A DNA stretch of 59,077 bases from IMG/VR virus record IMGVR_UViG_2690316267_000014; one strand, written 5' to 3'. The position numbers were made by a program. Below are positions 42,001 to 45,000 of this stretch, in pieces (position 1 is the first letter of the stretch; every line of letters begins with the position of its first letter). The DNA comes from a virus. Lineage: Duplodnaviria > Heunggongvirae > Uroviricota > Caudoviricetes.

Positions 42001-45000
42001 TCGCGTAATTCGTTTTTTTCAATTTTAAAGTAATGCTTTCCGGGCATGAATCGCGTCGTGTTGTTCAGAAAGTTATCAGAAATGTTTTTGATTTTTGTTC
42101 CGTAAAGGTGAGCCAACAGTTCAGTAGTAATTACGGGGATCTGGTTATAGGTAACAGGGGAAAGGTTTTCGACAGAAATTTGAACAGCCATAATGACCTC
42201 GCGTTTCGATAATTTTTACCTCGCCACCGTCAGGTGCTAATCATCGTGGTGGCGAACTGTGCGGGGTTAGCACTACCGGTCGAAACATCCGGCGAGCCTT
42301 TCGGCTCCCCCACACAGCCCGCCATAAATCGCGAATGTGACTGTGCTTAGCGCATAAAAAAACCGCCAGCGCGGTTATGCACCGTTTCGATATCCGGGGT
42401 GCTAATCCCGACGCCAGGTCTTGCTGGCGCGTGAGGAATATAGCCCCGAACACGCGACGTTGTCAAACTGATGGCATTGCAGATCCCTACGCAATGTAAC
42501 ACTATGTGTTATACATTAATAACGGAACAAAAAATGCGCATTTTTAAAAACGCCTGGTTTGAGCGATTTGCACGCAAAACAAAATATCCGACCAATCACT
42601 GCGCGAAATTGTTAAACAGGCTGATAACGGGCTTATCTCAGCAAACCTGGGTAACGGCGTTATCAAGCAACGTCTGCCACGAGTCGGTGGCGGCAAATCT
42701 GGCGGTTATCGCACAATCATTTTCTATCGCGTCGGCACAAGGGCCTTTTTCGTATATGCATACGCAAAAAATGAACGTGAAAATATAACCGCTACTGCGG
42801 AAAGTGCATTTCGGAAGGCGGCTCCTCACGTACTCAATCTAACAGATGAACAACTGGCACAACTGATTCTACAGGGTCAGTTTACGGAGGTACCCAATGA
42901 GTAAAAATTACCGCAGTGATGCGCTTGCATCCGTACATGAAATGATGGAATCGCTTCATGATATCGGCGCAGTAACGAAACAGACTATGCGAGAATTCGA
43001 TGAAACTTGTCTCCAGCCAGCGCCGGTAATGTCTCCGGAAAGGATCCGTGCACTGCGCGAACGAGAGCATCTGTCTCAACCTGTTTTTGCCAGATACCTC
43101 AACGTCAGTAAAAACCTGATATCAGACTGGGAACGTGGTGTAAAACGGCCGGGAGGTGCCGCTCTTCGCCTTCTTTCAGTCGTAGAGAAAAACGGGATCC
43201 AGGTAATATCATGATACTCCAATACAACAAAACCCGCCGAAGCGGGTTTTCATTAGAAGCACCTTTAGTTTTGCTGTTCTATTTTAAGCTTGATAGTTTC
43301 ATACAAAACAATAGTTGCGCCTGTTTTACATAATTCCCGGCTGTCATACGCACGAGACCAATAACACAACCAGTTCTCGAGATCTTCTCGAGTATAGGTT
43401 TTGCAGGCCAGTCCCTCTGCCATTTCCACGATTTCATCGCCTGGTGCTGTTAACTCATAGCCATTCAACAACAAGAAGACATAACCAGCCATCATAGCTG
43501 TTCGTTTGTTTGCATTAGCAAATGGATGATTCTGAATCAGACTTTCAATCAATACTGATGCCAGTACAAACATGTCATTAGTCTGTTCATACCATCGAAC
43601 CATGCTGGGACGAGACTGAGAAGAACTTAAATTATCAACACTCAGCACACTAACAGGTTCATCTGGTGTTTGAAGCTCAATTAAAAGGCGATTAATTTCG
43701 GTAAGATCATCAAACGAAAGGTAGTGCACTCCTTCAACAATCTCAGCCATAGAGCACAATACCCATCATTACACTTTTGAAAGTTCTTCCATTGCCTTCT
43801 CGTAACGAGAAAAACCGAAATCGAAAGCATTTTTCACCTGCTCACGATGAGTGCAATTTTCATCGATAGCCGGGCGCGGAGCTGCCACAACGCTTTTATC
43901 GCGAGGGGGAATAGTCAATCGCGGGTGTTTTTTTAGTGCGTAGCTCATTGGGTGTACCCTTACTTCTCCGTCCTGTTCTTTAACAAAAATCAAGTCAATA
44001 CAAAATTAGTCAGGCTAATGTTGTTAGCATAGCCTAATACCAATCGTATTCACAACCACAGTAAGTGAAAAAACCCGCCGAAGCGGGTTAAGTGCGGGTG
44101 CGTTGAGGATGCCTGACACATCAGAGGTGGCGAGGGATTTCTCCCTCGCCTGGTCTCTTACTCCTCAGGTTCGTAAGCTGTGAAGACAGCAACCTCCGTC
44201 TGACCGGTTCGGATTCGTACCTCGCAGAGGTCTTTCCTCGTTACCAGTGCCGTCACTACGACGGTAATACAGATGACGATCAGGGCGACTAACATCGCCT
44301 TTTGCTGCTTCATAGCCTGCTTCTCCTTGCCTTTCGGCGCGTAAGAGGCTAACCTACATGTGTCTAGCATGAAATTGGCCTCAGATTAATGTTAGGCGTC
44401 TTGCAGGACGCGTAATGTTAACTGGGGCTTTTCTCTGTCTGCCTTACGGTGGCATGCCCGAGGCAGACAGCCTCAAGCACCCGCAGCAATTCTACTTAAC
44501 TCTCGCTTTACCGCAAACCGTTTTTACCCGATATGGGAATTCCCATATCGTAATGAATTCAGTTCCCTAGTCGATCCATCAAAAACACAACCAGGCAGTA
44601 AACGCCCACAACAGCAATAACAGCCAGCGCACCTTCCATTGCCAGTGATATATCATCCGACATATTCCCTCCTTTGGTGTTAATCCCGGCGAACGTTTTT
44701 ACCCCCACCGACAAATAACATATACTAAAAAGGTGATAGCCATAGCAACGCCTGTAATTGCAAATGCTTCAGGCCAGTTCATTGGCGCACCTCCTGCGGC
44801 GGTTCTGGTAGCGGCATCCAGTCGGTTACATTGCGGCTCTGTGTTTCGAAAAATTCATCACCATCACGGACTACATCAAAAAACTCACCGTCTCGATATT
44901 GCGCATAAAGAACGAATGCGCCATCACATAAAATAATTACGTGCTGACCGTCATCCGGCATTCGCTCACTACAGCTTATCCAACCATCCAGAGTTACCGG

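What the first reader, a model, noticed from the sequence alone, without database searches (positions are those of the whole stretch)
43229..44089. Doc-type toxin module bracketed by two identical 20-bp terminator hairpins
The 20-mer aaaacccgccgaagcgggtt occurs at 43229-43248 and 44070-44089, on either side of the Doc toxin gene and its small partner. One copy terminates the convergent HigA-like gene and the other ends the hok transcript. Identical hairpins flanking a two-gene module suggest cassette-style acquisition or exchange by recombination at the shared element.
Basis: seen in the sequence. Interest (0 to 1): 0.5.

Follow-up and report, generated by a model that had tools for sequence, protein, structure and literature searches.

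The report
Shared terminator hairpin brackets swappable prophage cassette
Two identical terminator hairpins flank a Doc toxin–antitoxin module in a lambda-like E. coli prophage, and comparison with hundreds of related phages shows this hairpin is the exact joint at which this and other accessory modules are gained, lost or swapped next to the hok gene.

Summary
The 20-mer AAAACCCGCCGAAGCGGGTT occurs exactly twice (43229-43248, 44070-44089; 0 expected) and brackets an 821-bp Doc module.

Both copies are intrinsic terminators that read on the minus strand (AACCCGC-UUCG-GCGGGUU plus a U-tract). The right one ends the hok mRNA. The left one ends the partner-doc operon and is at best a weak bidirectional stop for the convergent HTH gene.

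The hairpin form itself is a generic terminator, found in Pseudomonas, Burkholderiales, Serratia and many unrelated viral contigs. At this locus it still marks variable cargo.
- A related prophage has higA|one hairpin|hok with the Doc module precisely missing. This empty junction is in 168 E. coli genomes, against 34 with the filled arrangement.
- The Doc module occurs behind six or more different left flanks. Four of these also exist empty.
- The same slot elsewhere holds RmrT/RmrA, an XRE+M78 peptidase pair or a lipoprotein gene, each again bracketed by the hairpin.

Best reading: these are morons whose shared terminator serves as a short boundary sequence for recombination. The recombination mechanism is inferred, not shown. 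This is a clean new variant of known ideas (morons, boundary sequences), of moderate interest.

The parts
43229..43250 (-). Left hairpin (HP_L): intrinsic terminator of the partner-doc operon. The RNA reads AAAACCCGC-UUCG-GCGGGUUUU followed by GUUGUAUU. It holds the 20-mer 43229-43248. It is possibly a weak bidirectional stop for the convergent HTH gene.
   Evidence: Terminator scan calls it on the minus strand only, with a 9-bp stem. Fold energy is -19 kcal/mol, z = -4.0. The same 18-mer follows doc in close and in about 70%-identical Doc modules.
44070..44089 (-). Right hairpin (HP_R): intrinsic terminator at the 3' end of the hok mRNA. The RNA reads AACCCGC-UUCG-GCGGGUU followed by UUUUCACUU.
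   Evidence: Terminator scan, minus strand. Fold energy is -14.8 kcal/mol. Homology to hok loci of many phages and plasmids starts at window 44068-44070. 116 of 125 hok-side sites carry the exact 18-mer.
43265..43750 (-). doc: a Doc/Fic-family toxin gene of 161 aa, with the motif HPFANANKR.
   Evidence: Pfam PF02661 2.9e-11. TIGR01550 1.3e-35. PDB sequence hits 9vzc at 1e-12 and P1 Doc 3k33 at 1.2e-4.
43769..43948 (-). 59-aa partner ORF upstream of doc, the presumed antitoxin. It has no family assignment.
   Evidence: Present upstream of doc in 80 of 80 Doc loci, full length, with divergence parallel to doc (72% against 74% identity in the distant group). No hit in Pfam, NCBIfam, PADLOC or PDB sequences.
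43949..44069 (-). Doc-module 5' region, the putative promoter and operator. It contains the inverted repeat AGGCTA..TAGCCT at 44012-44035, which overlaps a weak -35/-10 candidate at 44026-44055.
   Evidence: My own scan found 8 of 12 hexamer matches and the palindrome. The standard scan found no promoter here. In 'type B' modules this region is replaced by another sequence, starting exactly at the partner start codon.
44090..44482 (-). hok/mok/sok type I toxin-antitoxin module. hok is 44158-44313, the mok frame runs to 44370, the sok/leader region is 44308-44482, and the 3' fbi element (about 44095-44126) abuts HP_R.
   Evidence: HOK_GEF 5.6e-24. Rfam sok 116.9 bits. The 5'-3' (tac-fbi) duplex is -35.1 kcal/mol.
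42535..43214 (+). Left neighbour, a convergent RelE-like (PF06296) toxin gene plus an HTH antitoxin gene (42897-43214). In the window the toxin gene carries a 1-nt deletion in an A-run near 42577.
   Evidence: HTH_3 1e-7. The intact L003 copy matches RelE PF06296 at 1.7e-46. The alignment shows the 1-nt deletion.

Best explanation
**What it is.** The window is a lambda-like prophage whose early rightward operon runs on the minus strand. Between the replication genes and ninB...Q sit two consecutive self-contained accessory units (morons): the hok/sok module and a low-GC partner-doc toxin-antitoxin module. Each ends in the same very stable intrinsic terminator, a 7-bp G+C-rich stem closed by a C(UUCG)G tetraloop plus a U-tract.

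**How it works.** Many accessory modules of enterobacterial phages end in this same hairpin, so the 18-20 identical bases act as a portable boundary sequence. Recombination between two copies can:
- delete what lies between them, leaving one copy;
- bring in a module plus one hairpin from another phage;
- join a module to a new neighbour.

The recombination could be intramolecular or between co-resident phages. Likely agents are the phage's own Exo/Bet system, RecA, or replication slippage. The long, conserved hok sequence on the right can supply the second crossover.

**Shown and inferred.** The hairpins, their strand, the module identities, the filled, empty and alternative-cargo states, and the exact junctions are shown. 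That the hairpins terminate transcription, that the modules are expressed in the lysogen, and that the joints arise by homology-driven recombination at the hairpin are inferred.
For: **One copy against two.** L003 has higA-flank|one hairpin|hok-flank. Its two alignments to the window overlap exactly on the 20-nt hairpin, and the difference is 841 bp, one repeat period.

**Population counts.** 168 E. coli genomes carry the empty higA|HP|hok junction, 34 carry the filled arrangement, and 125 of 5,426 carry the Doc module at all.

**Survey of 125 non-identical hok|HP sites.**
- There are 12 left-flank types.
- The Doc module lies behind six or more of them, and four of these also exist empty.
- One context (X5) has five states: empty 41, Doc B 11, Doc A 1, XRE+M78 1 and a lipoprotein gene 2.
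- Context X1 has empty 31 and RmrTA 3.
- Each cargo is on the same strand and ends in the hairpin.

**Clean indels.** In the window's own context the hok allele follows the left flank (1.9% divergence) rather than the cargo (6.5%). In contexts X3 and X4 the pattern is reversed, which indicates that the doc|HP|hok block moved with a crossover at the left hairpin.

**Two independent hairpins, not a duplication.** Distant Doc modules (about 70% nt identity, no hok nearby) keep the exact 18-mer. The RmrTA and lipoprotein cargos carry GGGTA where hok has GGGTT at the cargo-side edge.

**Independent slots.** In L203 against L087, 3.9 kb of homology ends exactly at the hairpin. In 933W, hok homology starts at the hairpin's edge and the hairpin is absent.

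**Terminator reading.** Both copies are called on the minus strand. In the viral set 90 of 113 copies have the U-tract only on the UUCG strand, 19 on both strands and 1 only on the other. Loop variants are UACG, UGCG and UCCG, and there is one compensatory stem change.

**Moron hallmarks.** GC is 41% in the Doc module against 50% for the window. The module has its own terminator and is present or absent between syntenic genomes.

**Recombinase present.** The prophage encodes exo, bet, gam and a RecE-family nuclease.
Against: - **Short homology.** The identical stretch is only 18-20 bp, below the roughly 30 bp given as the minimum for Red-beta recombination (PMC3945230). Any such events must be rare.
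- **Convergence.** The hairpin is a generic, probably convergently evolved terminator form found in many unrelated bacteria and viral contigs. Identity alone does not prove common descent or exchange.
- **Selection on ends.** Selection to keep modules intact would by itself place surviving junctions at terminator edges.
- **Not every variation here is hairpin-bounded.** Small rem-like genes lie between the hairpin and the backbone without a second hairpin. The right boundary of the Doc insertion in L203 is not at a hairpin. The Doc promoter region has been swapped at the partner start codon.
- **Weak promoter evidence.** No convincing sigma-70 promoter was found for the Doc module.
- **No direct evidence.** There is no experimental or transcript evidence for termination or for recombination.
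- **Sampling.** The collection scans were capped, so the counts are samples.
Confidence: 0.7

Rival explanations
1. Coincident, convergently evolved terminators. hok and doc each evolved or retained the same near-optimal UUCG terminator independently. The mosaic joints were made by illegitimate (homology-independent) recombination. They sit at hairpin edges only because selection removes recombinants that damage a module. The hairpin's sequence identity plays no part in the recombination.
For: The 18-mer is found in very diverse bacteria and unrelated viral contexts, nearly always as a terminator. Some boundaries at this locus are not at hairpins. Illegitimate recombination is the favoured general explanation for phage mosaicism, because boundary sequences are usually absent (PMC3029335).
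Against: Illegitimate insertion does not predict that every filled state has exactly two hairpin copies and every empty state exactly one, with flanks matching up to the hairpin on both sides. It does not predict that four or five unrelated cargos in the same slot all end in the same 17-18-mer. It also does not predict that each new left neighbour brings its own A-run directly against the hairpin.
Confidence: 0.15
2. One-way loss only. The doc|hairpin|hok block is ancestral wherever it occurs. The hairpin repeat only causes occasional precise deletions by slippage or single-strand annealing between direct repeats. It never mediates gain or exchange.
For: Deletion between short direct repeats is the simplest event and needs no donor. 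L003's immediate flanks are 98.5-99.75% identical to the window.
Against: The empty higA|HP|hok junction is five times more common (168 against 34 genomes) and more diverged (94.9% identity) than the filled one. One left/right context holds five alternative contents, which requires gains. The Doc module is in only 125 of 5,426 genomes, whereas hok+hairpin is in more than 4,400.
Confidence: 0.08
3. A dedicated mobile-element mechanism. The hairpins are recombination sites or a target-site duplication of a site-specific or hairpin-specific system (integron attC-like, IS200/IS605- or REP/RAYT-like), which moves the cassette.
For: The filled, empty and alternative-cargo pattern resembles integron cassettes. 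The hok-side edge GTTAAGT happens to fit the integron core GTTRRRY (sequence reading).
Against: - None of the cargos carries an integrase or transposase gene. The only integrase is the prophage's own, at its end.
- The element is a perfect 7-9-bp stem with a 4-nt loop (18-22 nt). It is not a 57-141-nt imperfect attC.
- Empty sites keep a hairpin, unlike IS200/IS605 excision.
- The two hairpins of some cargos differ at the cargo-side base, which a target duplication would not give.
- The doc-side edge does not fit GTTRRRY.
Confidence: 0.03

Closest known systems
Morons of lambdoid phages (Juhala et al. 2000; reviewed in PMC3594210)
   Same: The Doc module is an extra unit lying between genes that are adjacent in related phages. 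It has its own terminator and a deviating GC content (41% against 50%). It is transcribed in the direction of the host operon and carries a function useful in the lysogen (toxin-antitoxin or defence).
   Different: Here several different morons occupy one slot and all end in the same hairpin as the resident hok module. The moron's terminator therefore doubles as the junction. The module's own promoter is not convincingly identified.
Short conserved boundary (linker) sequences proposed as sites of homologous exchange between phage modules (Susskind and Botstein; Clark et al. 2001; discussed in PMC3029335)
   Same: A short sequence is conserved at joints between otherwise unrelated modules in many genomes. 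One-copy and two-copy states are related by recombination between copies.
   Different: The boundary sequence is a functional RNA element, a UUCG-tetraloop terminator, not an intergenic linker or a gene end. At 18-20 bp it is shorter than the roughly 50-bp example described for mycobacteriophages in PMC3029335.
[quoted passage not shown]
   Same: A fixed position in a temperate phage holds alternative toxin-antitoxin or defence cargos between conserved flanks. RmrTA, a PADLOC defence pair, is one of the cargos here.
   Different: It is a different phage family and position (the nin region beside hok, not next to cos). Here a candidate exchange joint is visible in the sequence, whereas the mechanism at the P2/P4 hotspots is left open.
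Integron gene cassettes with attC sites
   Same: There is an array-like slot, each cassette carries one copy of a hairpin-forming element at its 3' end, and empty and filled states differ by cassette plus one element.
   Different: There is no integron integrase. The hairpin is a perfect, short terminator, not an attC. Cassettes carry their own regulation.
hok/sok loci (R1 hok/sok; hokW-sokW of Sp5, PMC8621323) and P1 phd-doc
   Same: The Hok protein, mok frame, sok region and 5'-3' fold-back pairing are present. Doc has the HxFx(D/N)(A/G)NKR motif and a small upstream partner gene.
   Different: The Doc partner is not a recognisable Phd/YefM protein. Doc here has 161 aa, against 126 aa for the P1 Doc chain. 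In 933W, hokW lacks this terminator hairpin.

Membership tests
Intrinsic (Rho-independent) terminator | G+C-rich stem-loop immediately followed by a U-tract on the transcribed strand | tested here: met
   Both copies are called on the minus strand. Fold energies are -19 and -14.8 kcal/mol. In the viral set the U-tract is on the UUCG strand in 109 of 113 copies, counting the 19 with runs on both sides.
Intrinsic (Rho-independent) terminator | Position just downstream of a stop codon of a gene on that strand | tested here: met
   The doc stop is at 43265 and HP_L ends at 43250. The hok stop is at 44158, followed by the fbi element and then HP_R at 44089.
Intrinsic (Rho-independent) terminator | Transcripts actually end there | not testable with these tools
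   This needs Term-seq or 3' RACE on the lysogen.
UNCG tetraloop hairpin | Loop U-N-C-G closed by a C-G pair on the functional strand | tested here: met
   The minus-strand RNA reads ...GC-UUCG-GC.... The variants seen are UACG, UGCG and UCCG (N position), plus UUUG and UCAG. There is one compensatory G-C to A-U stem change. The sample is small.
Moron | Present in some genomes and absent in otherwise syntenic relatives | tested here: met
   Filled and empty pairs exist in four left contexts. 168 genomes have the empty junction and 34 the filled arrangement.
Moron | Own terminator | tested here: met
   HP_L follows doc in all 49 close relatives and in most distant Doc modules.
Moron | Own promoter | tested here: inconclusive
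   The standard scan found none. There is only an 8-of-12 candidate, overlapped by a palindrome at 44012-44035.
Moron | Base composition differs from the surrounding phage genes | tested here: met
   The Doc module is 41.3% GC. The window is 49.8% and the neighbouring units are 46-54%.
Doc (death-on-curing) / Fic family toxin | Fic/Doc fold signature and the Doc-type motif HxFx(D/N)(A/G)NKR | tested here: met
   PF02661 2.9e-11. TIGR01550 at 122 bits against a cutoff of 38.65. HPFANANKR is in the sequence. PDB hits to Doc proteins.
Doc (death-on-curing) / Fic family toxin | Partner antitoxin of the Phd/YefM type | tested here: not met
   The 59-aa partner has no hit in Pfam, NCBIfam, PADLOC or PDB sequences. 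It is nevertheless linked to doc in 80 of 80 loci, so it is a conserved partner of unknown family.
Doc (death-on-curing) / Fic family toxin | Toxicity and rescue by the partner | not testable with these tools
   This needs expression experiments.
hok/sok type I toxin-antitoxin | Hok peptide, overlapping mok frame, sok antisense region and 5'-3' fold-back (tac-fbi) | tested here: met
   HOK_GEF 5.6e-24. The 70-aa mok frame is present. Rfam sok scores 116.9 bits against a gathering score of 59. The duplex is -35.1 kcal/mol, with no shuffle control.
Phage module boundary sequence | Same short sequence at joints between different, non-homologous modules in several genomes | tested here: met
   There are 12 left-flank types and five or more right-side contents joined through the same 18-mer.
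Phage module boundary sequence | Recombination occurs at it | not testable with these tools
   This is inferred from the one-copy and two-copy states and the overlapping alignments.
Integron cassette / attC | Integron integrase and an attC-type imperfect hairpin (57-141 nt, R/L boxes, extrahelical bases) | tested here: not met
   No such integrase lies near the slot or in the cargos. The hairpin is a perfect 7-9-bp stem with a 4-nt loop.
IS200/IS605-type or REP/RAYT hairpin-directed element | Y1 transposase, different left and right end hairpins, and an empty site without the element's hairpin | tested here: not met
   There is no transposase in the cargos. The ends are direct repeats of one hairpin, and empty sites retain one copy.

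The most novel reading that the evidence does not exclude
Lambda-like phages of enterobacteria may run an integrase-free, integron-like cassette system. A near-universal C(UUCG)G terminator would serve both as the 3' end of accessory toxin-antitoxin and defence modules and as the 18-20-bp joint through which phage annealing recombinases (Bet, RecT) shuffle those modules among phages. The slot beside hok would be one such docking site. If so, terminator identity would itself be under selection for exchangeability, and this would give a concrete mechanism for cargo turnover at phage defence hotspots.
Probability: 0.3. Interest if true: 0.65.

Novelty: new variant of a known kind. Interest (0 to 1): 0.5.

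Why it matters
How accessory and defence genes are swapped so quickly at fixed positions in temperate phages is an acknowledged open question (PMC9122126). Clear examples of the long-proposed boundary sequences are rare (PMC3029335).

This locus offers a compact, well-populated case. One 18-20-bp terminator hairpin sits at every joint of a slot that alternately holds nothing, a Doc module, RmrTA, an XRE/peptidase pair or a lipoprotein gene. It can be tested directly by recoding the hairpin, crossing phages with and without bet or recA, and looking for the 841-bp deletion and circle.

The finding also matters for annotation: two terminators in the pR operon path, a Doc module with a partner of unknown family, and three toxin-antitoxin units side by side.

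If the hairpin proves irrelevant to recombination, the locus is an ordinary pair of morons.

Tried and rejected
- **Chance repeat.** Rejected: 0 matches in 100 shuffles.
- **Left hairpin as the HigA terminator.** Downgraded. It is not called on the + strand, and the empty arrangement has no + strand U-tract.
- **Integron attC, IS200/IS605 or target-site duplication.** Rejected. There is no recombinase, the hairpin is short and perfect, empty sites keep a hairpin, and the cargo-side base differs in some cargos.
- **Rfam families for the hairpins.** Only sub-threshold matches to sRNA models (isrK, rsmX, istR), driven by their terminators.
- **Identity of the 59-aa partner.** No hit in Pfam, NCBIfam, PADLOC or PDB sequence searches. 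Structure prediction was not run because it does not bear on the finding.
- **Promoter for the Doc module.** The standard scan was negative and only a weak candidate was found.
- **Literature.** Searches for a prior description of this slot (hok + nin region + prophage; death-on-curing + hok + lambdoid) found nothing specific. The paper I checked for RmrTA (10.1101/2022.05.12.491691) does not mention it.
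Full report
**1. The observation**

The 20-mer AAAACCCGCCGAAGCGGGTT is at 43229-43248 and 44070-44089. It occurs nowhere else in the window, even with 3 mismatches, and none of 100 dinucleotide-preserving shuffles gave a match. The bases on either side of the two copies differ, so the exact repeat is 20 bp.

Between the copies lie two genes on the minus strand:
- a Doc-family gene at 43265-43750 (Pfam Fic/DOC 2.9e-11; TIGR01550 122 bits; PDB Doc proteins; motif HPFANANKR);
- a 59-aa ORF at 43769-43948.

To the right is hok (44158-44313, minus strand; HOK_GEF 5.6e-24) with its mok frame and a sok region (Rfam 116.9 bits). To the left is a convergent HTH gene (42897-43214), preceded by a RelE-like gene.

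**2. Context**

The window is 100% identical to a prophage of E. coli ML35. The annotation shows a lambda-like prophage whose pR operon runs on the minus strand. The gene order is cro, cII, replication genes, DUF1627, DUF977, DUF551, hok, [partner-doc], (convergent RelE-like/HTH), ORF6N antirepressor, ninB, ninE, ant, rusA, ninH, Q. The locus is therefore in the nin region. The prophage also encodes exo, bet, gam and a RecE-family nuclease.

**3. What the hairpins are**

- Both are called as intrinsic terminators on the minus strand only.
- The RNA is AACCCGC-UUCG-GCGGGUU plus a U-tract, that is, a C(UUCG)G tetraloop hairpin (fold energies -19 and -14.8 kcal/mol).
- Across 113 distinct copies from viral contigs, 90 have the A/U-run only on the UUCG strand, 19 on both strands and 1 only on the other. 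In 124 copies from bacterial genomes the figures are 51, 57 and 5.
- Variants change the loop N position (UACG, UGCG, UCCG), and one shows a compensatory G-C to A-U stem change.

HP_R lies 5 nt beyond a 3' segment that pairs with the hok mRNA 5' end (-35.1 kcal/mol). This matches the tac-fbi fold-back architecture of hok mRNAs, which I state from established knowledge of hok/sok. HP_L lies 15 nt beyond the doc stop. On the + strand it has only four U's. In the empty arrangement the + strand has none.

**4. The hairpin form is generic**

The 18-mer occurs in more than 120 viral contigs and more than 120 contigs of a one-genome-per-species collection. About two thirds of the viral copies have neither hok nor doc next to them. 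The hairpin is thus a ubiquitous, probably convergent terminator solution. Identity alone would not mean much.

**5. At this locus it marks variable cargo**

(a) Empty site. L003 (E. coli HCP4S3_I4) has the higA flank, one hairpin and the hok flank. The Doc module is precisely absent. The two alignments of L003 to the window overlap exactly on the 20-nt hairpin, and the difference is 841 bp, one repeat period.

(b) Population counts. The empty higA|HP|hok junction is present in 168 of 5,426 complete E. coli genomes, mostly at 94.9% identity. The filled arrangement is in 34. The Doc module is in 125 genomes, always on the chromosome.

(c) Survey of 125 non-identical hok-side sites. These have 12 different left flanks.

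| Left context | States found (counts) |
|---|---|
| X5 | empty 41, Doc type B 11, Doc type A 1, XRE + M78-peptidase pair 1 (1,348-bp hairpin spacing, L085), lipoprotein gene 2 (665-bp spacing, L217) |
| X1 | empty 31, RmrT/RmrA pair 3 (1,835-bp spacing) |
| X2 (window, higA end) | Doc type A 5, empty 1 |
| X3 | Doc type A 2, empty 3 |
| X9 | Doc type A 1, empty 2 |
| X4 | Doc type A 1, Doc type B 4 |
| X10 | Doc type A 3, Doc type B 1 |

The Doc module lies behind six or more left flanks, and four of them (X2, X3, X5, X9) also occur empty. The RmrT/RmrA assignment rests on PADLOC scores of 349, 86 and 308 bits; a diverged RmrT-containing version sits in context X7. Every cargo is on the hok strand and ends in the hairpin.

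(d) Independent hairpins. Distant Doc modules (66-76% aa identity) in other phage positions without hok still have the exact 18-mer after doc. In one such slot, 3.9 kb of homology between a Doc-bearing phage and a phage with another small gene stops exactly at the hairpin.

(e) 933W. Its hok module lacks the hairpin, and homology begins at the hairpin's edge.

**6. Which way do the modules move?**

In the window's context the hok allele is closest to that of the same-left empty site (1.9%) rather than to other Doc-linked hok alleles (6.5%). This indicates a clean hairpin-to-hairpin indel. The same holds for Doc type B in X5 (1.7% against 5.0%). In X3 and X4 the reverse holds (3.2% against 7.7%, and 0.2% against 6.7%), which indicates that doc|HP|hok moved as a block with a crossover at the left hairpin. 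Both patterns need a recombination event at the hairpin.

The RmrTA and lipoprotein cargos have GGGTA at the cargo-side end of their hairpin where hok has GGGTT. This argues against a target-site duplication. It favours two independent hairpins that recombined within the shared bases.

**7. Best explanation**

Two consecutive morons each carry the same near-optimal terminator. The Doc module is a conserved two-gene unit: the partner is present in 80 of 80 loci with parallel divergence, and its GC content is low (41% against 50%). The terminator doubles as a short boundary sequence, and recombination between copies produces loss, gain and re-joining of modules. I put this at about 0.7.

The mechanism of recombination (Bet/Exo, RecA, or slippage) is inferred. 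The 18-20-bp identity is below the roughly 30 bp quoted as the Red-beta minimum (PMC3945230), so events must be rare.

**8. Caveats**

- Surviving joints would tend to sit at module ends anyway.
- Some differences at this place are not hairpin-bounded: rem-like small genes, the right boundary in L203, and the swap of the Doc promoter region at the partner start codon.
- No convincing promoter was found for the Doc module.
- The collection scans were capped.

**9. Comparison with what is known**

The units fit the definition of morons: own terminator, presence or absence between syntenic genomes, deviating GC (PMC3594210). The junction behaviour fits the boundary-sequence hypothesis, for which examples are few (PMC3029335). 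The slot resembles the variable defence hotspots of P2/P4 elements, whose exchange mechanism is open (PMC9122126). It is not an integron, IS200-type or target-duplication system (see the membership rows). Literature searches found no description of this particular slot or of the terminator as its joint.

**10. Verdict**

It is a new variant of known kinds and of moderate interest (0.5). It is interesting mainly as a clean, testable example of a terminator acting as an exchange joint for toxin-antitoxin and defence cassettes.

Noticed in passing
window 42245-42443 (- strand), upstream of 41526-42191: Rfam finds a C4 antisense RNA (75 bits), isrK (70 bits) and the c4 target element a1b1 (43.6 bits, just under the gathering score). 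Together they form a P1/P7 immI-like antisense control unit directly upstream of an ORF6N/P22AR-type antirepressor gene.
   Followed up: partly
window about 42577 (RelE-like gene 42535-42900, + strand): Compared with the intact copy in L003 (PF06296, 1.7e-46), the window has a 1-nt deletion in an A5 run. This puts the N-terminus out of frame, and RefSeq annotates a shorter protein. The toxin of the left-hand toxin-antitoxin pair may be inactive.
   Followed up: partly
L014, L121, L254, L218 (1,835 bp between hairpins); L085 336-1701; L217: Other cargos in the same slot beside hok are an RmrT/RmrA defence pair (PADLOC 349, 86 and 308 bits), an XRE-HTH + M78 (ImmA/IrrE-like) peptidase pair, and a 130-aa lipoprotein gene. 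Each is bracketed by the hairpin.
   Followed up: partly
window 43948/43949; loci L144-L169: The Doc module exists with two unrelated 5' (promoter) regions, giving hairpin spacings of 841 and 847 bp. Homology to the window stops exactly at the partner's start codon.
   Followed up: partly
many loci (e.g. L018, L017, L030, L037, L065, L070, L110): Unrelated viral copies of the hairpin often share an extended left context CTCC[AG]G[GA]CA[AT]TAAAA. On the functional strand this reads hairpin-UUUUAUUGCCYGGAG, which looks like a terminator followed at once by a Shine-Dalgarno-like GGAG. I did not determine which phages these are.
   Followed up: no
L203 (rc) 3872-5227 versus L087 9671-9980: In a tail-gene context a distant Doc module has replaced most of a small secreted-protein gene. 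The left boundary is exactly at the hairpin. The right boundary lies inside that small gene, not at a hairpin.
   Followed up: partly
L418 (phage 933W) 1420-1580: hokW of 933W lacks the hairpin altogether. Homology to the window's hok module starts at the hairpin's hok-side edge and abuts a different gene.
   Followed up: yes
left flanks X1, X6, X9 (e.g. L002, L013, L095): Small rem-like genes (55-83 aa) lie between the hok hairpin and the phage backbone in some phages but not in others, without a second hairpin. Other recombination routes therefore also act here.
   Followed up: partly
L307 3005-3173 (Serratia sp.), L322 1559-1759 (Acerihabitans sp.), L360 24-1033: Bacterial genomes have two exact hairpin copies only 151-183 bp (or 992 bp) apart. 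I did not look at what lies between them.
   Followed up: no
window 2300-4500 and 57000-58000: Segments similar (80-96%) to the DUF551/ea22-like region of related prophages (L003-L005) occur elsewhere in the window in the opposite orientation. These are repeated phage gene fragments within the same 59 kb.
   Followed up: no
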